Shown here piece by piece: positions 4,401 to 17,897 of a DNA stretch of 20,000 nt. The position numbers and the translations under genes were made by a program. Source of the stretch: an uncultured virus (IMG/VR IMGVR_UViG_2061766007_000665) (lineage: Duplodnaviria > Heunggongvirae > Uroviricota > Caudoviricetes); IMG/VR virus record IMGVR_UViG_2061766007_000665; one strand, 5' to 3'. Under the pieces are notes generated by a model. It was given only the letters and a program-made list of their open reading frames with translations, was not told where the DNA came from and did no database searches. Positions within the stretch are counted from its first letter, which is position 1; each line of letters opens with the position of its first letter.

Positions 4401-5057
4401 ATGTCTAGTAAGCCGAATACAAAACAAAAAATATTCTGGGACGTCGATGATGTTATATTAAATACATCAGAAGCTATTATTGATATTATTAATCAGAAAT
4501 ATCGCGTCCCAAATGGCCTTAAGCCAAAAACAGAAGATGATCAAAAGTCCTGGGGATATAAATCTATATATAGATCGTTTTCTGAAAGTCAGTTATTTGA
4601 AATTTTAGAATCCAACGAATTTTGGAAAAAGGTTAGGATTAATAAAGATTTTAAGCGCATTCTTGATACTGGAATGCTTGATAACTATAACAATGTTCTA
4701 GTTACAAAAGGGACTCTTACAAACCTTTCTCTTAAAATTGGATATCTTAAATCACATGGACTTAATTGTGATAGAGACTTCGTCTATGATCCTATCGTAA
4801 TCGAAGCTGGAGAAAGCGCTACTGATAAATCTGCAATTGATATGCGTGGAGCTATTCAGATAGACGACAATATTACTAATCTTATAAATACTAACGCGCA
4901 CATCAAAATTCTTATCAAAAATAATCATGATACCGTCTTTAATAATTCGTTTGGCCATTATACGGACAAAATTGACCCTGACGATATCTTTTACGAAGTA
5001 AACACAATCTCTGAAATTGAAGAGATTTTAAAATTTAATCTAGAATACAAGCTTTAA
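4401..5057 (+). CDS. HAD-superfamily phosphatase, 5'(3')-deoxyribonucleotidase-like
   Basis: Motif I IFWDVDDVI, motif II LVTKG, motif III Lys (DKS), motif IV IQIDDN. Confidence 0.8.
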   Translation: MSSKPNTKQKIFWDVDDVILNTSEAIIDIINQKYRVPNGLKPKTEDDQKSWGYKSIYRSFSESQLFEILESNEFWKKVRINKDFKRILDTGMLDNYNNVLVTKGTLTNLSLKIGYLKSHGLNCDRDFVYDPIVIEAGESATDKSAIDMRGAIQIDDNITNLINTNAHIKILIKNNHDTVFNNSFGHYTDKIDPDDIFYEVNTISEIEEILKFNLEYKL

Positions 5058-5073: not shown

Positions 5074-7897
5074 ATGAAACCAAATCGTTTGTATTATGTT
5101 GTCAAGCTATCTTCATCTTTACTTAAAGAANNNNNNNNNNNNNNNNNNNNNNNNNNNNNNNNNNNNNNNNNNNNNNNNNNNNNNNNNNNNTAGAGATATT
5201 ACAGGGCAAAAAATTGATAGAGACATACTTGAAGAGTGGTATTCTGAACGTGATAGATTAAAAAAGAAAAAGAATAATACTAAAGAAACTCGAACAAAGA
5301 TAAAAGAACTCCAAGACAATATATACAACATGATGTATATAAAAGAATACATCACAGTTGTTATGGAAAATGAGAAAGATTATGAGCACATGTTCAAACA
5401 TGGCTTTGAATTTAATGGCCGTGTATATAGAAGAATGAGCTGCTCAGCTTCTCAGGCCAGAGTTTCAACTATAGTATTTGTAGATGAGTCTATTAAAGAT
5501 GAATTAAAAGATAGACTTGATAACGGAAGAGATTTAAATCATCTGTTAGCACCTAGTAAATATAATGCATACTTTGGTTTATATTCTTCTGCGATTAAGC
5601 AAGTTAGGAAACCAAGATTCTGCATTGTAAAAGACTATACCGAAACCAGACAAGTAGACGTTGATTATGTTATTGAGACAGATAAAGACTCTGATGATAT
5701 AATCGAACCTAGAACAGTTGATGTTGACTTTAATCTATTTGACGGATCCGGTATGATCAGTCCTGAATTTGCTGCTAAATGGGCAGAAGATTTAGGTGAA
5801 GATTATGTACCTTGTCAATTTTGTTTAAGAAGCTCTTTCACTAAAGGCATGGTTAATGTATTTGACTTTGTCGAATGGTGTAAAGAATATAATAACGGCA
5901 ATTATGAAATAGTTGATATATATGGGAAGAAGAAAGATTTAAGATTCTTTGATGTAATTCTTTCTGAAGGACAGGTGAAATTATGGGATTCATGGGAAAG
6001 CCAAAAGTCGTTTGAAGAGAATAGTGAGAAGAATGGCATTATCTGGGGCATTACAAAATACGCTCCAAAGAAAGATAAAGACGTTCTGCTTTCTAACTAT
6101 CAATATATTCAGACCCTTAAGCTTAATGATGAACAAATAGAATCTCTTTGCAAAGATACCGTTGATTACATTAAAGGAGTTTCATATTCCGATCCATATT
6201 ATTCATTACTGTTTATGCTTGGTGAAAACATGGATATACCAGATATTAAACAGTATATGGAATCAAGTGATAATTATTGGCTTAAAACGCTTATTTTAGA
6301 ACACAAGCTTCTTGACGATAAATACTCTAAAGAAAAAATTAGAGATATGATCGTGAGAAGAATTGAGCAAGCATGCCTTGGCAGAATTATTACAAGAGGC
6401 AATTATCAATGTATTGTTCCTGATAATTTCGCTTATATGGAAGCTATAACAGGCAAACCCATTGTTGGGTTATTAAAAGCTGGTGAGTTTTACAGCCAAT
6501 ATTGGAATAACATTGAAGAAAATGGACAGAGAACAACTAAAATTGACTGTATGAGAAGTCCGCTCACTCATTTTAGTGAGCATTACGCAGTTGATCTTAA
6601 GTTAAACGAAGATACTGAAAAATGGTATAAGTATAGCTATAGCGGTATAATCGTAAATGTCCATGACAATCATACAATGCACTTTGCTGGTTCAGATTAT
6701 GACTTTGATATTCTTGCTACTACCAATAATCAAGAGTATATCAATGGCATTTACCCAAACCAAAGAGTGGTAACATACGCCGTTAAAAAGCCAAAGAAGA
6801 AACTATTTAACGAGGATGATTTATATATTACTGATACATTTTCGTTTGGCACACAGATTGGGCAAATTACAAATGCAACTAGTACATTTGTTGCAATGAT
6901 GGCCGATTATCCGGAAGGCAGTAAAGAATATAAACTTCTTGGTGATAGAGTTAAAGCTGGATGCGCCGCTCAGAGCAGACAGATTGATAAAACCAAAATT
7001 GGCGAAAACGTTAAGACTTTAGGATCGTGTTGTAGACAATATATGAAGAGAAGCGAAGACGATACTGAAGAAGAACGTGAAAAAATAGAATTTTATAATA
7101 AACTTGTTGCTGATAGAAAGCCGTATTTCTTTAAATACAAGTATAAAGATCTTTATAAAGATATCAACATATACAACGAAAAAGTAGATAGAGACTTTAA
7201 AGAGAAATTTGGAAAATCACTTAATGAAGTAAAAGAGTTTGCACATCTTTATCCTGATAAGTTATCAGATAAGCAAAAACAAGCACTAGAGCTTTACAGA
7301 AAAAACTTCCCGGCACTTACTTCTCCATGTGTAATGAACAAGGTTTGTAAGTACATCGAAGGAATTGATTTCGAGATTAAGAAAAAGGTTAGATCTACAT
7401 CTGACTTTGACTATAAGGTTCTTCAGACCCAGGGATTTAACATTAATCAGAAGTTATATTATAAAATTAAGACTGAAGTTGAAACTACTTTTAAAGAGTG
7501 GGAAGAAAAAACAAAAGCTGCTAAAAAGAGCAAGATAGAAAAAAGCTTTACATATGATAAGCAGGAGATGAGATTTGAGCGTGAGGCTGAATGTAGAGCT
7601 TTAAAAGATAGACTTGAGGATATAGTATCTAATGAAGAAAGTCTTGCAAATCATCTTGTGTATCTATTTTATGTAGATAGACCGTCGTTTAGCAAATCTA
7701 CGCTTTGGAATTTAGTTGGAAGACAAATTTATCAAAATGTAAGATCAAACAAAGATTGTTTCTACTTCCCTGTTAAGAATAGTGATGGAACCATTACCTT
7801 CCTTTATGAAAAATATTCGATAGCTAAGATCGACTTAAGACAAAATTGTGAAGTTGACCTTAACGATAATAACTTTGATAATATAGAGTATGATTGA
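5074..7897 (+). CDS. yonO: YonO-like single-subunit two-barrel DNA-dependent RNA polymerase
   Basis: About 940 aa; motifs FDGSGMIS, LRSSFTKGM, MRSP and GSDYDFD of the YonO/cellular-RdRP-related family; lies upstream of HU and terminase as in SPbeta. True start is probably ATG 5074 (AAAGGA RBS, MKPNRLYYVVKLSSS), joined across the N-gap. Confidence 0.85.
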
Positions 7898-10936: not shown

Positions 10937-12860
10937 ATGGCTGTCACATGGAACAATAACGTTCAAAATATATCATTAGAAAGCCTGTCCGTTGGCAGCG
11001 CTGAAGAATTCCGTAATAAGCTTAATAAAAACTTTGGACATGATGTTATTAACCCTACTACTGGAATCGAATCTGCAATTAATGATAGTTTAAATCCATC
11101 AGTAAATGAGATTCATGATGTCGTGTCTGCTATTGAAGGACGAGTTACAAACTCTGAGGGCAATATTAGCAACTTAACTACCAATTTAGCTAATCTTACA
11201 AATGGTTACAATAATTTAAATACACTAGTAACAAGCACATCTAATCCAGTTGGTATTAATGCTCGTCTTACCGCAGCAGAAACAACGCTTGGTAATGCAA
11301 ATAGCGGCCNNNNNNNNNNNNNNNNNNNNNNNNNNNNNNNNNNNNNNNNNNNTTTTGGGCGCTGGTGGAGTTAATGCAAGATTAAACAATTTGTCAAATA
11401 GCCATAATACATTATATTCTGGATTTAACAATTTATATAATAATGTATACAATGCTGGTGGGCTTAATTCTAGAGTTTCTAGCCTTGAAGCGACTGTTGG
11501 AAACGCAAATGCCGGTTTAGTCAATACTGTTACAAAATTAAATACTACTGTAACAGGTCTTGTTACAAATGTAAACAGTTTAACTAATACTACAACCAAC
11601 ATTCTTCCAGTATTAAACGATCTAGGTAATGATGTCACTAATTTAAAGACAAATGTTGGCATTCCTACTGACGCAGCAAATTCTACAGGTACTGCATTTG
11701 CAAGAATAGCTCAGTTACGTGCCGATATTGGAGTATATACTGGTGTGCCAAATATTAATACACGCCTTAATGCTCTTGAGGCCAATAGTGGGTCGGCTAG
11801 CGTTCTTGCTCCTAGAGTTTTAGATTTAGAGAGTTTTGTTCAATATAATAATGATATATTAAATGATAATGGATCTGTCGCTGCTAGACTTGGGGCACTT
11901 GATGGGTATGGAATATCTGGATATGCTGATTTGAATAAATGGGTTGGCTACACCGCTACATTAAATACTCAACAGGGAACTGTTGCTAGTAGATTATCAA
12001 ATCTTAATAACACTGTTGTTGCAGCATACGCGCAAGCAAACTCAGCTTATGATAAAGCTAATAGTGCATATAGTACTGCAGTTGCAGCGTATTCTCAGGC
12101 AAACAGTGCATACAACCAAGCAAACAGTGCATATACACAAGCTAATACTGCAAGGAATCATGCTAATAATGCTTATAATACAGCAAATGCTTCTTATACC
12201 AAGGCTAACTCAGCATACACTATAGGTGACGGCGCCGCTACAACAGCTGCTGCCGCTTATGCAAAAGCAAATAATGCGTATAATCACGCCAATAACGCGT
12301 ATAATGCAGCTAATTCGGCATATTCAAAAGCCAACAGCGCTTATGATCTTGGGTCTACAACCATACAGCCAGTGTTGAATAACGCATATAATCACGCCAA
12401 TAGTGCTTACACTATAGCTACTAGCGCATATGCACATGCCAATAATGCATATAATACTGCGAATAGCGCTTACACAAAAGCCAATGGGGCATATAATCAT
12501 GCCAATAATGCTTACAATACAGCAAATAGTGCATATAGCACAGCTAACAGTGCATATACACAAGCAAATACAGCAAGCACAACTGCTTCTACTGTAAATA
12601 CATGGGTTGGATATAATTCTACTATTTATGGAAGCAACGCAAACAATACAGTTCATAATAGATTAAGCAGAGTTGAAACAGCGATAGTTAATGCAAAGCT
12701 GCCATATATTTATAATTCGTCATTAACAACGCCAGTTGGGACGCTTAATGCAAAAGATTATTATGGCACTTTTGTTATAGATTCTAACAGACGACTTTGG
12801 TTCTCATCCAATAATAATGCTAATGCTAATTGGCAGCTTGTCGCATCTGTTTGGGGTTAA
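10937..12860 (+). CDS. Segmented coiled-coil fibre protein (virion fibre/whisker-like)
   Basis: GGGAGG RBS; two ORF pieces joined across gap 11310-11352; Asn/Ala/Thr-rich heptads; small C-terminal domain. Confidence 0.7.
12018..12590 (+). repeat. Tandem 21-nt / 7-aa repeat array (AN[S/N]AYxx)
   Basis: ANSAYDK ANSAYST ... ANNAYNH ANSAYTI, about two dozen degenerate units. Confidence 0.9.
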
Positions 12861-12883
12861 ACCATAGAGGAGGATAGTTTATT

Positions 12884-13672
12884 ATGCTAACAGCGGCACA
12901 AATAGTGGCATTAAAAACCGCTATAAAAGAGCTCATGCAAAAAAGGTCTTCTACTATTGGCGGTACTGGTTTATCTGATTATGGCACTAGCACATATGAC
13001 TTTTCAACTACCCCTACAAAAGACGGCGTCATAAAAACAGAGCATGGAAATAAAACGTTTGATTTGCTATATCATATTAATAGTATAGCTTCTTATGGTC
13101 AGACTTCGCTTATTTCACAAAGCAACATAATAGAGGATGTAGATCCTTCAATAATTACCTATGTAAATACATTAAAAAGCTACAACAACTCTACGTCATC
13201 GTCTGCCGCCCATGGTTGCAGAAATGCATGCACTGGTTTATGTCAGGGAAGCTGTTATGGAGAGTCTAAAGCTGGTACTTCTTATGGTAGCTATTGTGAT
13301 GGATGCACAGGTGGATGCGGAGGAGGGTGCGAAGGCTGCGGTGGTGACTGTACAGTTGTTTGTTCCGATGGATGCTATACTGGCTGTAGTAACGGATGTT
13401 ATTCATCAAGTAATACGAATTGCGGATATTGTACTACATCTTGCGCCGATAATTGCGGAAGCGCTTGTGCCAGAGCATGTTCTGGTGGATGTACAAATGG
13501 ATGCTCTAACGGTTGCCAAGGATGTGATGGATGCGGAGGTAGTAATTGTACCGGATATTGCGCTTCTACATGTAGCAGTTGTTCTACTGCATGCAAAGAT
13601 TCGTGTGGTGCAAATTGTACTGGATGCTCTGTATTATGTACCGGGACTTCGATTTCTACGGCAGAGTGGTAA
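12884..13672 (+). CDS. Cys-rich CXXX-repeat protein, putative radical SAM modification target
   Basis: Cys-free N-terminal ~110 aa, then 34 Cys mostly in Cxxx/Cxx spacing in a Gly/Ser/Thr-rich context; GGAGG RBS. Confidence 0.85.
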   Translation: MLTAAQIVALKTAIKELMQKRSSTIGGTGLSDYGTSTYDFSTTPTKDGVIKTEHGNKTFDLLYHINSIASYGQTSLISQSNIIEDVDPSIITYVNTLKSYNNSTSSSAAHGCRNACTGLCQGSCYGESKAGTSYGSYCDGCTGGCGGGCEGCGGDCTVVCSDGCYTGCSNGCYSSSNTNCGYCTTSCADNCGSACARACSGGCTNGCSNGCQGCDGCGGSNCTGYCASTCSSCSTACKDSCGANCTGCSVLCTGTSISTAEW

Positions 13673-13696
13673 TAAAGGTTAAGGAAAAGGTTTAAA

Positions 13697-13990
13697 ATGA
13701 CAAAGACTTTAAAAATAGATAGTGAGATAGTTATTGATCTTCAACGGCTTGCCGTTGCTGTTGAATCTAGAAGAGATCTTATCGCCTTTATGATTTCTAC
13801 AGATATGGATTTAACGTCTCCTAAATTTAAAGAATATGAAGAAGCTTACGAAAGTTATTATTTTCAATATTCTACATTAAAAAAAGAATTAGAAAATAAT
13901 ATTATAGCGCCAGCTTTTGGTAAAGAAAATTTGATTAAGTGGAATTTAGACTTTAATACAGAAATAGTAACTGTTGAATTAAAAGAATGA
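13697..13990 (+). CDS. CXXX-repeat modification system small partner protein (putative)
   Basis: 97 aa, acidic and helical, ending WNLDFNTEIVTV; between target and rSAM; ATGA overlap with the rSAM start. Confidence 0.7.
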   Translation: MTKTLKIDSEIVIDLQRLAVAVESRRDLIAFMISTDMDLTSPKFKEYEEAYESYYFQYSTLKKELENNIIAPAFGKENLIKWNLDFNTEIVTVELKE

Positions 13991-15297
13991 TTACAGAAGA
14001 ATTAAGACACATCCCTCAATATCAGGATGTCATTTCTAAATTATATCAGGATATGTCTCCTAGTAATGAGCTGTTAACAAAAACAGTTACTTTTCAGGTA
14101 ACTGACGCGTGTAATCTTGCATGTACATATTGTTATCAGATTAGTAAACATAACAATGTAATGCCTTTTGAGGTTGCCAAAGAATTCATTGAAATGCTTC
14201 TTGAAAAAAATAATGACAATACAAAGCAGTATATAGATACTTGGAATAGCAAGGCAGTCATTATTGAATTTATTGGCGGAGAGCCTTTTCTTCAAATAGA
14301 TTTAATTGATCAAATATCAGACTATTTTGTAAAAAGAATGATTGAAACAGATCATCCATGGCAATATAATCATAAATTTTCTATTTGTTCTAATGGTGTT
14401 TTATATTTTGATCCGAAAGTACAGGCGTATATAAGAAAGCATAGACACAATTTATCGTTTTCAATTTCTATTGATGGTAATAAAAAGCTTCATGATTCTT
14501 GCAGAATTTTTCCTGATGGAAGCGGAAGCTATGATATAGCCATTGCTGGCGTAAAGCATTATATGAATGTTTTTGGAGGAAGAATGGGGTCTAAGATGAC
14601 CATTGCTCCCGGGAATGTTAATTATGTTGCTGAGGCCGTTGAGTCTTTAATAGAAACTGGATATGAGGATATTAACCTTAATTGTGTATATGAAGAAGGA
14701 TGGACAATTGAGCACGCAAAAATTTTTTATGATCAGCTAAAAAGACTGGCAGATTATATTGTTGATAATGACTTATTTGAAAAAGTGTTTATATCTATAT
14801 TTTCAAATACGTTTTTTAAGCCTAAAGATATAAGTGATGAAGATACTTGGTGTGGCGGAAACGGAAAGATGATTTCAGTAGACTATAAGGGAGATATCTA
14901 TCCTTGTATTCGTTATATGGAATCTTCTTTAGGAAACGACCAACCGCCACTAATTGTAGGTAATGTATACGATGGTATTCTTTCTAAACCTAATTGGTGC
15001 GAATGTTTTAATTGTTTAAAATGCACCACAAGAATATCTGAATCACCACAAGAGTGCTTAAACTGTCCTATTGCTGATGGGTGCTCTGATTGTCTTGCAT
15101 ATAATTATCAGCTTTATGGCTTGCCTATNNNNNNNNNNNNNNNNNNNNNNNNNNNTATGCATAAAGCTCGCTCTCTTGCTAACGCTTATTTTTGGAACAA
15201 AGGATATAAAAAGAAGGGCTCCAATGAAAGATTTAAAATTTGGTTACCAGATGAAGANNNNNNNNNNNNNNNNNNNNNNNNNNNNACCGAGCTGTAG
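13987..15297 (+). CDS. Radical SAM/SPASM peptide maturase, CXXX-repeat target family
   Basis: CNLACTYC (CxxxCxxC), FIGGEP, SISIDG, SPASM cysteines CGG...GDIYPC...CLNCPIADGCSDC; exact stop uncertain because of a gap. Confidence 0.9.
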   Translation: MITEELRHIPQYQDVISKLYQDMSPSNELLTKTVTFQVTDACNLACTYCYQISKHNNVMPFEVAKEFIEMLLEKNNDNTKQYIDTWNSKAVIIEFIGGEPFLQIDLIDQISDYFVKRMIETDHPWQYNHKFSICSNGVLYFDPKVQAYIRKHRHNLSFSISIDGNKKLHDSCRIFPDGSGSYDIAIAGVKHYMNVFGGRMGSKMTIAPGNVNYVAEAVESLIETGYEDINLNCVYEEGWTIEHAKIFYDQLKRLADYIVDNDLFEKVFISIFSNTFFKPKDISDEDTWCGGNGKMISVDYKGDIYPCIRYMESSLGNDQPPLIVGNVYDGILSKPNWCECFNCLKCTTRISESPQECLNCPIADGCSDCLAYNYQLYGLPXXXXXXXXXXMHKARSLANAYFWNKGYKKKGSNERFKIWLPDEXXXXXXXXXXTEL

Positions 15298-15334: not shown

Positions 15335-16319
15335 ATGGCCACATTATTAGATGCGGTAATTCCTTTTGACAGAATTGTCACTATGGGAATATGGAATAAC
15401 CAATCAACCTATTATACTCTTCAAACGGTTTATAATAAATTAGTAAGTCAATATCCTGGAAAAGAAATTTACATTTCCAACGGTGGATTCTTTTCCATGT
15501 CTAGTCCATGGTTTCCAGTGTTTGGTCTTAAGATAGATGGAAACGTTTATGCTAATGATTGGAGCCAGGGCGGCTGGATTGGATTTTCTAATGGTACGAT
15601 TGGATATGGATATATGGGGACTATTCCAAATCAGTGGAAAAACGCTGTTTCTGGATATCCTTCATTGTTAGAAAATGGTGCAAAGGCATCTAGTTTTTCT
15701 TATTGTATTGATAATACTAATAGAGGAAGAACTATGCTTGGATATAACAAAAAAGAGGTTATACTTTCTTGCGTTGGAGATGTATCAGGAAGCTCTGATC
15801 TTACATTAGATGAAGAGATAGTTCATATGCGTAATTTAGGAGCTCTGTTTGCTATTAATCTTGATGGCGGCGGATCTTCTCAGTGTAACTTTAATGGACA
15901 AATCATAACTTCTCCTAGAAGAGTTAATAATTTTATATATATAGTTGCAGAACCTGATAAATCAAAAGACGTGATAGCAGTTGATGGTTCTTGGGGGCCC
16001 GCCACATNNNNNNNNNNNNNNNNNNNNNNNNNNNNNTGGAATTATAAGTGGACAACCAGCTTGCAATAAGCAATATCTTCCAGCATGCTCAACTGCATCT
16101 TGGAGATTCTATAAAACTTCTAGCGGAAGTCAGTGCATTAGAAAATTACAAGAGCTTGTTGGCGCTAGTGTTGACGGGTATTGTGGGCCTGGAACCGTCA
16201 GAGCACTTCAGGCGTTTTTATTTAACAATGGGTTTGCTGCAGGTACCATTGATGGATATATGAATAAAACAACTGTAATGGCATGGCAAAAATATGTAAA
16301 CGCATATTTTAAAAAGTAA
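15335..16319 (+). CDS. Phosphodiester glycosidase (NAGPA-like) domain plus C-terminal peptidoglycan-binding repeats
   Basis: NGGFF, RGRTMLG and AINLDGGGSS motifs; VDGSWGPAT, VDGYCGPGTVRALQ and IDGYMNKTTVMAWQ repeats; joined across gap 16008-16036. Confidence 0.8.
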
Positions 16320-16349: not shown

Positions 16350-17897
16350 TTGGCTAAGCTTACTAAAAGTATGGTTGATCTTCAGGCCAANNNNNNNNNN
16401 NNNNNNNNNNNNNNNNNNNNNNNNNNNNNNNNNNNNNNNNNNNNNNNNNNNNNNNNNNNNNNNNNNNNNNNNNNNNNNNNNNNNNNNNNNNNNNNNNNNN
16501 NNNNNNNNNNNNNNNNNNNNNNNNNNNNNNNNNNNNNNNNNNNNNNNNNNNNNNNNNNNNNNNNNNNNNNNNNNNNNNNNNNNNNNNNNNNNNNNNNNNN
16601 NNNNNNNNNNNNNNNNNNNNNNNNNNNNNNNNNNNNNNNNNNNNNNNNNNNNNNNNNNNNNNNNNNNNNNNNNNNNNNNNNNNNNNNNNNNNNNNNNNNN
16701 NNNNNNNNNNNNNNNNNNNNNNNNNNNNNNNNNNNNNNNNNNNNNNNNNNNNNNNNNNNNNNNNNNNNNNNNNNNNNNNNNNNNNNNNNNNNNNNNNNNN
16801 NNNNAAATATTAGCTACATATTTTAATCGTTTTGTTCCATTATATAATAAGCACGTATGCTCATGCTGTGGTTCTGCTAAAGGCTTAGACAATTTTTATA
16901 TAGTATATAATGTCACCTGTGGGTCATTAGTAGACAAAAATGGCAGTTATCATATGACAATTTGCAAAGAGTGCTGCCAAAGACTTTTTGCATATTTATA
17001 TTCTCATGTGGCTGCTAAGAATGCAGAGCTTGCGATGCAGTATATGTGTTCATATACTAATTNNNNNNNNNNNNNNNNNNNNCTTTGAAGACTCAGATAG
17101 AAAGGGAACTTTAATTGGTGAATATATTAAACTCATTAATTCTGAAGTTCCCGGGTCTACTTTTATGGACAGCCCGTTTTTAAAAGATGAGCATTATAGT
17201 GCCATAATGAGAATTAGTGAAAAAGAGGACGATACTCCTCTTGACTGGAGCGCCGAAGATACTAAAAATAAAAAAGATGTAATTCGGCTTCTTGGCTACG
17301 ATCCTTTTACATATTGTGAAGATGACAACGACAGAAAAATACTATACGCAGATTTAATATCTATACTTGATGAAGATATACAGCAAGACTATGTTAAGCT
17401 GCAAAGTGCATTGACCATTGTTAAGTCTTTTACTAAAGTAAGAAAGCTTGATGAAAAACTTAATGAAATGGAAAAGAATGGAGAGTCACTCAACGAACAA
17501 AAAGCCGTTGCTGACCTAAAAGCAAAAGAGCTTAAGGCCATTAGTGACTTTAGTAGAGACTCTGGATTTGCTGAGCGCTTTAAGACAAAACAGTCTCAAG
17601 GTCAGACAAGTTTTACCGGAATCGTTAAAACCATGAATGAGAAGAAGTATGAAAATGAACTTATTAACAAGTATGATGTTCAAACTTCTAGCACAATACA
17701 GGCAGCTGCTGACGCTAGCTTNNNNNNNNNNNNNNNNAGAAGTTTATAAAATTTGTTCTGATCAATTAGAGGAACTTAGAAAACTTAGAAAAGATAATAA
17801 TAGACTTGAAGAGGACTTAAGAAAGACTAAATATCAGTTGGCCGAGCTTTCTTTAAAAGAAAAAGCTAGAGAAAACGGAGTTGACACCGATGCTTAA
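16350..17897 (+). CDS. YonG-like protein, putative terminase small subunit (split by gaps, including a 414-nt gap)
   Basis: GAGGTG RBS with TTG start; CSCCG...FY...ICKEC Zn motif; C-terminal coiled coil; overlaps the terminase start. Continuity across the large gap is not verifiable. Confidence 0.55.

What the first reader, a model, noticed from the sequence alone, without database searches (positions are those of the whole stretch)
10937..15297. Phage-encoded radical SAM/SPASM system with a 34-Cys target, coupled to a virion fibre gene
Seen: four tightly packed genes (fibre, CXXX-repeat protein, small partner, rSAM/SPASM enzyme; 23- and 24-nt spacers and an ATGA overlap) between the HU genes and the terminase. 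Known: CXXX-repeat target/partner/rSAM trios are described as bacterial RiPP-like systems, and related SPASM enzymes form Cys-to-carbon thioether crosslinks (sactipeptides, ranthipeptides). Inference: no peptidase or exporter is visible, the target is a 262-aa protein rather than a short precursor, and it directly follows a fibre gene in a late-type operon. The phage may therefore crosslink a structural fibre-tip or receptor-binding protein post-translationally, for example as a disulfide substitute in an anaerobic host.
Basis: partly seen in the sequence, partly recalled or inferred. Interest (0 to 1): 0.9.

Follow-up and report, generated by a model that had tools for sequence, protein, structure and literature searches.

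The report
Phage fibre-linked cysteine-ladder maturation cassette
A gut phage encodes, right behind a fibre gene, a protein with 34 evenly spaced cysteines, a small helper and a dedicated radical-SAM enzyme, and comparison with many related phages suggests, without experimental proof, that the enzyme cross-links an appendage of the virus particle.

Summary
Four co-directional genes are present: fibre, a 262-aa protein with 34 Cys, a 97-aa helper and a 436-aa rSAM/SPASM enzyme. Spacers are 23 and 24 nt, plus an ATGA overlap. The enzyme is a TIGR04115 CXXX-repeat maturase (445.6 bits, cut-off 350).

The cassette is a phage-specific variant of that system.
- Its targets carry a conserved ~105-residue helical N-domain.
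- The helper is not TIGR04116 by HMM, and is fused to the enzyme on 13 contigs.
- In 21 of 28 representative phage loci, tail-category genes lie nearby.

New here: the gene directly upstream of the cassette usually ends in a conserved ~35-residue tag (…LWIDT…KYYNG..W..V..VWG), and the window's fibre has it.
- The tag precedes the cassette in 59 of 107 loci with N-domain targets.
- It does so in 0 of 27 loci without them.
- Scanning IMG/VR with the tag alone returns the cassette in 26 of 26 and 29 of 30 strong, evaluable matches.

Non-Firmicutes bacterial relatives lack the N-domain, the tag and phage neighbours.

The cross-link chemistry and presence in virions are untested. No paper was found. 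This scan has noted the same idea before on other DNA (43 notes).

The parts
10937..11309 (+). Fibre gene, N-terminal part (frame of ATG 10937), read up to the N mask
   Evidence: ORF list and sequence. A strong Shine-Dalgarno (AGGGAGGA) lies upstream. It has the same 'G(I/V)NARL...GNANSG' repeat style as the part after the mask.
11310..11352 (.). Masked stretch (43 N) hiding the junction of the two fibre reading frames
11353..12860 (+). Fibre gene, main part: coiled-coil protein with heptad 'ANSAYxx' repeats
   Evidence: PHROG tail fibre families: phrog_13173 E 7.6e-11, plus 4 more tail fibre, 1 tail fibre assembly and 1 tape measure. Pfam Alanine_zipper E 2.7e-14.
12744..12857 (+). C-terminal tag of the fibre (last ~38 residues, ...FVIDSNRRLWF...NWQLVASVWG)
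   Evidence: Matches the local tag HMM at E 9.3e-9. It sits at the extreme C-terminus and ends 24 nt before the target gene. Alignment A5.
12867..12873 (+). Shine-Dalgarno GAGGAGG of the target gene
   Evidence: Read from the sequence.
12884..13216 (+). Target, conserved helical N-domain (residues 1-111)
   Evidence: Alignments A1/A4 with invariant R21, P44, K57. AF2 pLDDT 85-89 over most of 1-105, helical. 640 representative relatives at E<=0.001.
13217..13672 (+). Target, cysteine ladder (34 Cys between residues 112 and 252) and short C-terminal tail
   Evidence: 23 CxxxC and 7 CxxC spacings. TIGR04114 repeat 13.6 bits, below the cut-off of 20. AF2 pLDDT below 50.
13697..13990 (+). Helper (97 aa): strand, long helical hairpin, two strands
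   Evidence: Alignment A2 of 23 homologues. AF2 pLDDT 97.1. Fused to the N-terminus of the rSAM on 13 distinct contigs. No family match.
13987..15297 (+). Radical SAM/SPASM maturase (436 aa); start overlaps the helper stop (ATGA)
   Evidence: TIGR04115 445.6 bits against a cut-off of 350. CX3CX2C at C42/C46/C49. SPASM-region Cys at 289, 307, 357, 360, 366, 369. Residues 381-390 and 424-433 are masked. phrog_1802 E 4.4e-61.

Best explanation
This is a phage-specific form of the CXXX-repeat radical-SAM maturation system, built as a four-gene accessory-fibre module.

Shown:
- A trimer-type coiled-coil fibre ends in a conserved ~35-residue C-terminal tag.
- The next gene encodes a two-part protein: a ~105-residue helical N-domain followed by a ladder of 34 cysteines spaced mostly four apart, with Gly/Ser/Thr between them.
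- A 97-residue helper and a TIGR04115 rSAM/SPASM enzyme follow, translationally coupled.

Inferred:
- In the reducing cytoplasm of an anaerobic Firmicutes host, the enzyme, guided by the helper (which is fused to it in other phages), makes many Cys-sulfur-to-carbon thioether bridges along the ladder. The ladder becomes a compact, reduction-proof and protease-resistant body. The leader is not cut off and nothing is exported.
- The N-domain serves as the docking domain. It docks to the helper/enzyme during maturation and then, or instead, to the tag at the fibre's far end. The matured ladder would thus ride on the virion as a fibre cap or adhesin, in the way tail-fibre tip proteins encoded just downstream of fibre genes do.
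For: Enzyme identity:
- TIGR04115 E 1.6e-133, above the cut-off. The next-best models are thioether-forming maturases: PapB 172 bits, QhpD-type 107, SCIFF 105.
- The rSAM motif and six SPASM-region Cys are present.
- Passages read in PMC12373016 state that related maturases link Cys to alpha or beta/gamma carbons, and that thioethers are stable alternatives to disulfides.

Cassette recurrence:
- 65 IMG/VR loci and 117 genome relatives, of which the best 80 were kept.
- Cys-ladder ORFs lie next to nearly all of them.

Helper-enzyme link: the helper is fused to the rSAM in 22 locus entries, which are 13 distinct contigs.

Structural context:
- Tail-category PHROG hits lie within about 6.5 kb in 21 of 28 representative phage loci. 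Lysis genes are present in 12 of 28.
- 6 of 7 Firmicutes genome loci lie in prophage tail modules, against 0 of 8 non-Firmicutes loci.

Tag link:
- In the rSAM-anchored set of 134 loci with upstream room, a C-terminal tag ORF ends between -60 and +400 nt from a cassette gene in 59.
- All 59 are among the 107 loci with N-domain targets. None is among the 27 without. After clustering rSAMs at 70% identity, this is 28 of 47 clusters.
- L003 has two tag-ORF-then-target pairs.
- Reciprocal scans of IMG/VR with the tag alone: 26 of 26 loci carry cassette parts just downstream. For the second variant, 29 of 30 evaluable strong matches do.

Expression hints:
- Strong ribosome-binding sites on the fibre and target, and a coupled start for the enzyme.
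- No + strand terminator between 9875 and 15297.
- One identical 267-nt contig from an RNA library bridges target and helper.
Against: - No experiment or proteome shows the target in a virion or shows it modified.
- The ladder has no conserved acceptor residue such as PapB's Asp. Positions between Cys are mostly G/S/T, so the chemistry is a guess.
- AF2 gives no confident model of the ladder.
- Neither the N-domain nor the helper resembles a known fibre-attachment or RiPP-recognition fold.
- No fusion of tag and N-domain was found. Only 1 ladder protein in 147 loci carries a large extra domain.
- 48 N-domain loci have no tag upstream.
- The slot between tail fibres and lysis genes is also where phages keep accessory 'moron' genes.
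- In this window the module lies between DNA-binding/early-type genes and the terminase, not inside a visible tail module.
- Many loci are close relatives, so raw counts overstate independence.
Confidence: 0.5

Rival explanations
1. The cassette is an accessory (moron-type) RiPP-like gene set. The N-domain is only a long leader recognised by the helper and enzyme. The modified Cys-rich protein is released at lysis and acts outside the particle, for example against competing bacteria, on the host envelope or on the gut matrix, and is not a virion part.
For: It has RiPP-like logic of precursor, helper and rSAM, and it belongs to a family that NCBIfam names as a peptide maturase. The related non-Firmicutes systems are chromosomal, with several short precursors and no phage genes. 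The cassette often sits at the tail-lysis junction. In L056 the domain lies C-terminal to the ladder, as a movable recognition element would. No virion evidence exists.
Against: The targets are 140-520 aa proteins. No protease, exporter or immunity gene was found in the window. The specific, reciprocal pairing with a C-terminal tag on fibre-type proteins is not expected for a free product.
Confidence: 0.25
2. The ladder is a metal- or iron-sulfur-binding protein (metallothionein-like), or a protein carrying another Cys modification. The enzyme then does something other than make thioether bridges, for example oxidising Cys as anaerobic sulfatase maturases do.
For: Regular Cys spacing with small residues is typical of metal binders. 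No acceptor residue is conserved. The anaerobic sulfatase maturase model also matches the enzyme at 59 bits.
Against: The best-scoring characterised relatives are thioether-forming maturases, and the sulfatase model is far below its cut-off (59 against 349). A metal binder needs no dedicated helper and maturase.
Confidence: 0.1
3. The target is a fibre assembly factor or chaperone. It acts on the tagged fibre end during assembly and is then discarded.
For: It is encoded directly downstream of the fibre gene, as tail-fibre assembly genes are (recalled general knowledge). The tag link is tight.
Against: A transient chaperone would hardly need up to 126 cysteines and its own maturase.
Confidence: 0.1

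Closest known systems
NCBIfam CXXX-repeat radical SAM system (TIGR04115 maturase, TIGR04114/TIGR04117 targets, TIGR04116 associated protein)
   Same: The enzyme passes the TIGR04115 cut-off. The target is a CXXX Cys repeat. 12 of 31 homologous targets match TIGR04114 and 11 of 31 match TIGR04117. The genes are adjacent.
   Different: The window's target scores 13.6 bits, below the cut-off of 20. The helper family matches TIGR04116 in 1 of 23 members, at E 0.086. The targets carry a ~105-residue N-domain that is absent from the non-Firmicutes systems. The cassette is phage-borne and paired with tagged fibre genes.
PapB/freyrasin and other ranthipeptide or sactipeptide maturases (CteB/SCIFF, QhpD)
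   Same: These are SPASM-type rSAM enzymes and the next-best models for this enzyme. They form Cys thioethers to alpha, beta or gamma carbons (PMC12373016, passages read).
   Different: All are below their cut-offs (PapB 172 against 340). No CX3D-type acceptor motif is present. The substrate is a 262-aa protein with 34 Cys. No leader protease or exporter is present.
Tail-fibre tip adhesins and assembly proteins encoded just downstream of fibre genes (for example T-even gp38 with an attachment domain plus a glycine-rich domain). Recalled from memory, not tested.
   Same: The gene lies immediately after the fibre gene. It has a two-part build: an N-terminal domain followed by a small-residue-rich repeat body.
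   Different: No sequence or fold similarity was found. Here the body is a Cys ladder with its own radical-SAM maturase.
Covalent stabilisation of virions (for example HK97 capsid isopeptide cross-links). Recalled from memory.
   Same: A phage particle protein is hardened by covalent cross-links.
   Different: That chemistry is autocatalytic and in the capsid. This would be enzyme-made thioethers in a fibre appendage, and it is unproven.

Membership tests
CXXX-repeat rSAM system (NCBIfam) | Maturase reaches the TIGR04115 curated cut-off | tested here: met
   445.6 bits against 350; residues 31-402 cover model positions 1-359 of 359.
CXXX-repeat rSAM system (NCBIfam) | Radical SAM CX3CX2C cluster motif | tested here: met
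   C42, C46, C49; invariant in A3.
CXXX-repeat rSAM system (NCBIfam) | SPASM seven-Cys auxiliary-cluster motif (motif recalled) | tested here: inconclusive
   C289, C307, C357, C360, C366 and C369 are present. The position of the last conserved Cys (C389 in A3) falls in the mask at residues 381-390.
CXXX-repeat rSAM system (NCBIfam) | Target reaches the TIGR04114 repeat cut-off (or TIGR04117/04118) | tested here: not met
   13.6 bits against 20; no TIGR04117/04118 hit. The CXXX spacing itself is plain: 23 CxxxC.
CXXX-repeat rSAM system (NCBIfam) | Associated small protein is TIGR04116 | tested here: not met
   No hit at E<=10 for the window's helper. 1 of 23 homologues hit, at E 0.086. No profile-profile test was possible.
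Ranthipeptide maturase, PapB family (NF047865) | Curated cut-off, and a Cys-X3-Asp/Glu acceptor motif in the substrate (motif recalled) | tested here: not met
   172.4 bits against 340. Residues between the Cys are mainly G/S/T, with no fixed Asp.
SCIFF/sactipeptide maturases (TIGR03974, NF035951) | Curated cut-off | tested here: not met
   105.2 against 425, and 65.1 against 720.
Classical RiPP pathway | Leader protease and/or exporter near the precursor | tested here: not met
   No such family among the tested window ORFs. Masked stretches were not readable.
RiPP recognition element (PqqD-like) for the helper | Winged-helix RRE fold | tested here: inconclusive
   The AF2 model has pLDDT 97. 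No RRE appears among the Foldseek or VIA matches, and the best Z of 7.8 goes to generic helical hairpins.
Phage tail fibre (for gene 10937-12860) | Similarity to tail-fibre families and a fibrous repeat build | tested here: met
   Five PHROG tail fibre families with E from 7.6e-11 to 6.4e-4. Alanine-zipper Pfam E 2.7e-14. Heptad repeats seen. Its place in the virion is unknown.

The most novel reading that the evidence does not exclude
Phages of anaerobic gut Firmicutes finish a tail or accessory fibre chemically. A radical-SAM enzyme turns a cysteine ladder into a thioether-stapled cap that resists reduction and proteases. The cap docks through its N-domain on a dedicated C-terminal tag of the fibre, or is even stapled covalently to that tag by the same enzyme. 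This would be the first enzyme-installed radical cross-link in a virion and a new class of receptor-binding tip.
Probability: 0.3. Interest if true: 0.9.

Novelty: new variant of a known kind. Interest (0 to 1): 0.7.

Why it matters
If true, virion proteins join the substrates of radical-SAM peptide maturases. It would also explain how phages of strict anaerobes, which cannot rely on disulfides, harden exposed appendages for the gut.

The finding reclassifies many 'ranthipeptide-like' clusters in gut Clostridia genomes as prophage tail parts. It offers a compact, genetically encoded way to make multiply stapled protein rods.

The tag and N-domain pair gives a concrete, testable docking hypothesis. 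It is also a simple sequence marker for finding such modules.

Tried and rejected
- Word-based homologue search with the N-domain alone found nothing. The profile searches did.
- PDB sequence searches with the N-domain, helper, tag and fibre gave nothing meaningful. The fibre's hits to the RNA polymerase II CTD are heptad-repeat artefacts, and T4 fibritin scored only E 0.18. I therefore dropped my first idea that the tag is a fibritin-type foldon.
- Fold searches for the N-domain (best Z 4.9) and the helper (best Z 7.8, generic hairpins) gave no specific match. BFVD returned only uncharacterised phage homologues.
- Pfam has no model for the tag, the targets or the L005 extra domain in the copy at hand.
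Helper/N-domain and tag/N-domain binding therefore stay untested.
- No whole genome is held.
- The near-identity DNA search of the phage collection found no match.
- I looked for ladder proteins fused to large fibre domains, as earlier notes of this scan claim. I found only one (L005, 968 aa) in 147 loci, and no tag-N-domain fusion.
- SPN3US papers: PMC5105663 has no mention of the rSAM genes or the ladder ORFs in its main text.
- Literature searches that found nothing relevant.
- Sequencing runs: apart from two runs that may be the source, holders had small shares of 0.05-0.17. Parts without cover mean nothing.
- No tRNA or Rfam family is in the window.
Full report
**What is there.**
The window carries four co-directional genes:
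- a fibre gene (10937-11374 in one frame, 11250-12860 in another);
- a 262-aa target (12884-13672);
- a 97-aa helper (13697-13990);
- a 436-aa enzyme (13987-15297).

The spacers are 23 and 24 nt, and the last two genes overlap by ATGA. The target has 34 Cys, with 23 CxxxC and 7 CxxC spacings. A 43-N mask at 11310-11352 hides where the two fibre frames meet. Both sides share the same repeat style, so one gene, a frameshift or two genes cannot be told apart.

Upstream lie one confirmed HU gene (PF00216) and an unassigned 203-aa gene. Downstream lie a NAGPA-domain gene, a PG-binding-like ORF, a 414-N mask, a 253-aa ORF and then the large terminase. No peptidase or exporter family matched any tested ORF.

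**The enzyme.**
- It passes the curated cut-off of TIGR04115, the 'radical SAM peptide maturase, CXXX-repeat target family' (445.6 against 350 bits, E 1.6e-133).
- The next models are PapB (172 bits), the quinohemoprotein amine dehydrogenase maturase (107) and the SCIFF maturase (105). All are below their cut-offs.
- It has CX3CX2C at C42/C46/C49 and six Cys of the SPASM region. The place of the last conserved Cys is masked.
- Passages read in PMC12373016 say that such maturases join Cys to alpha or beta/gamma carbons, and that thioethers are stable alternatives to disulfides.

**Target and helper are not the textbook partners.**
- The target reaches only 13.6 bits on the TIGR04114 repeat model, whose cut-off is 20. 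Of 31 homologous targets, 12 match TIGR04114 and 11 match TIGR04117.
- The helper matches nothing. Of 23 homologues, one touches TIGR04116 at E 0.086.
- All targets share a ~105-residue N-domain followed by a near-invariant 'SSSCRGACTGLC' entry into the ladder (A1 and A4).
- AF2 models the N-domain as a small helical domain (pLDDT 85-89) and gives no confident model of the ladder. No solved fold stands out, with a best Z of 4.9.
- The N-domain family has 640 representative members at E<=0.001 among 1.84 billion cluster representatives. In the 150 best-listed hits it almost always sits at the N-terminus, in proteins of 85-522 aa.
- The helper folds with pLDDT 97 as a strand, a long helical hairpin and two strands. 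It has no specific structural relative.
- On 13 distinct contigs the helper is fused to the N-terminus of the enzyme. This ties it to the maturation step.

**Where the cassette lives.**
- The enzyme has 65 relatives in IMG/VR at 39-61% identity. It has 117 in species-representative genomes, of which the best 80 were kept. The closest (58%) are Oscillospiraceae MAGs.
- Cys-ladder ORFs with up to 126 Cys lie next to nearly all of them.
- I took 28 representative phage loci (27 of the 65 IMG/VR loci plus L001). 21 have tail-category PHROG hits among the ORFs within about 6.5 kb, and 12 have lysis genes. The 7 without tail hits are L013, L005, L010, L065, L049, L009 and L066.
- Of 7 Firmicutes genome loci tested, 6 lie in prophage tail modules; L111 has only a 'virion structural protein' hit.
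- Of 8 non-Firmicutes loci tested, none has tail or lysis hits. These came from Spirochaetales, Selenomonadales, Bacteroidetes, Ignavibacteria, Alphaproteobacteria and Thermoguttaceae. They carry several short ladder peptides without the N-domain.
- So there is a bacterial form and a distinct phage form. The window belongs to the phage form.

**A tag on the upstream gene.**
The gene just upstream of the cassette very often ends in a ~35-residue motif: APxNTxLLWIDTxxGxxKYYNGSxWVxVxxVWG, or ...VPVAYT. The window's fibre has a divergent copy (E 9.3e-9) that ends 24 nt before the target.

In the set anchored on the enzyme alone:
- 134 loci have at least 300 nt of upstream room, and 59 have such a tag ORF ending between -60 and +400 nt from a cassette gene.
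- All 59 are among the 107 loci with N-domain targets. None is among the 27 without.
- After clustering enzymes at 70% identity, this is 28 of 47 clusters.
- L003 has two separate tag-ORF-then-target pairs.
- The tag ORFs range from 54 to 1190 aa.

The reverse test scanned IMG/VR with the tag alone:
- One variant gave 26 loci, and all 26 have cassette parts starting 15-40 nt downstream. L166 has room only for the helper, and L171 shows only enzyme pieces farther away.
- The other variant gave 41 loci. Of 31 strong matches, 29 have the cassette, L188 has no room and L194 lacks it.
- The 10 weak matches, mostly internal or repeated copies of a similar hairpin, have none.

Many of these loci are close relatives, so the counts are not independent events.

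Of 11 tag ORFs that went through PHROGs:
- 4 are tail fibre (window, L050, L017, L003b);
- 1 is minor tail (L030);
- 1 is virion structural (L111);
- 5 have no informative hit.

The tag has no Pfam or PDB relative. I withdrew my first guess that it is a fibritin-type foldon.

**Most likely mechanism.**
The shown parts are the enzyme family, the ladder, the helper-enzyme link and the reciprocal tag-cassette link. The rest is inference:
- The enzyme, with the helper, staples the ladder by multiple thioethers in the cytoplasm.
- The N-domain is the handle. It binds the helper/enzyme and, then or instead, the fibre's tag, so that the matured ladder becomes a cap on the fibre.

Weak support comes from three points:
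- strong ribosome-binding sites on fibre and target, against a coupled start for the enzyme;
- no + strand terminator inside the module;
- one identical 267-nt contig in a gut RNA library that bridges target and helper. DNA carry-over in that library cannot be excluded.

The window's DNA is held by bovine gut metagenome runs that may be its source.

**What speaks against it.**
- There are no virion or modification data.
- No conserved acceptor residue exists; G/S/T dominate between the Cys.
- No tag-N-domain fusion was found, and only one ladder protein has a large extra domain.
- 48 N-domain loci lack the tag.
- The tail-lysis junction is also a classic slot for accessory genes.
- In this window the module sits between early-type genes and the terminase.

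**Rivals.**
- A released RiPP-like product (0.25).
- A metal-binding or otherwise modified ladder (0.1).
- A discarded assembly factor (0.1).

**Novelty.**
- The system's family is known from NCBIfam.
- I found no paper on a phage or fibre link, the N-domain or the tag. The searches were made, and only listings and abstracts were seen. Passages were read in 10.1101/2024.01.22.576618, PMC5105663 and PMC12373016.
- Earlier notes of this scan describe the same 'cysteine-ladder fibre' idea on other DNA: 43 notes in at least 33 genomes.
- Two word searches of those notes did not show the tag.
- Their claim that ladders commonly form the far end of true fibres found little support in my loci.

Noticed in passing
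window 5096-7897 (+): A 933-aa protein matches Pfam RdRP PF05183 (E 1.5e-13) and phrog_8308 (E 2.6e-120). It may be a single-subunit phage RNA polymerase of the cellular-RdRP fold.
   Followed up: no
window 15335-16319 (+): A NAGPA phosphodiester-glycosidase domain gene (PF09992, E 9.6e-16) is followed by, and overlaps, an ORF with a weak PG_binding_1 match. NAGPA relatives also follow the cassette in L003, L045 and L063. This may be a cell-wall-acting partner of the module.
   Followed up: partly
L025 11834-13105 (and the 25-locus cluster around it): A reverse transcriptase (phrog_1423, E 6.6e-73) lies about 3.5 kb downstream of the cassette, after a 760-aa unknown protein. It may be a diversity-generating retroelement beside the fibre genes.
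   Followed up: no
L147 (Salmonella phage SPN3US) 4139-4531 and 4542-4946: Two Cys-ladder ORFs of 130 and 134 aa lie upstream of the two rSAM genes and are not annotated. The deposited CDS SPN3US_0166 (4615-4950) is in another frame over the second one. Published virion proteomes may therefore have missed them.
   Followed up: partly
L013 12513-14849: A second, shorter rSAM (405 aa) is followed by a 364-aa protein with a different Cys repeat (CSCNSDCADGCGSDC...) and its own N-terminal region. This is a sister system in the same phage.
   Followed up: no
L005 7001-8962; L055 4825-7212; L141, L143, L145: Some relatives of the enzyme are much longer (653, 795 and about 740 aa). They may hold insertions or fused extra domains.
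   Followed up: no
L019/L025-type loci 5325-6668; L008 5362-6345: The target is split into two adjacent genes: an N-domain with a short ladder, then a ladder-only protein of 44-64 Cys. The split is conserved across 25 loci. How the second is recognised is unexplained.
   Followed up: no
window, 22 masked stretches (for example 16391-16804): Runs of N interrupt several genes, including the fibre, the rSAM (residues 381-390 and 424-433) and the region before the terminase.
   Followed up: yes
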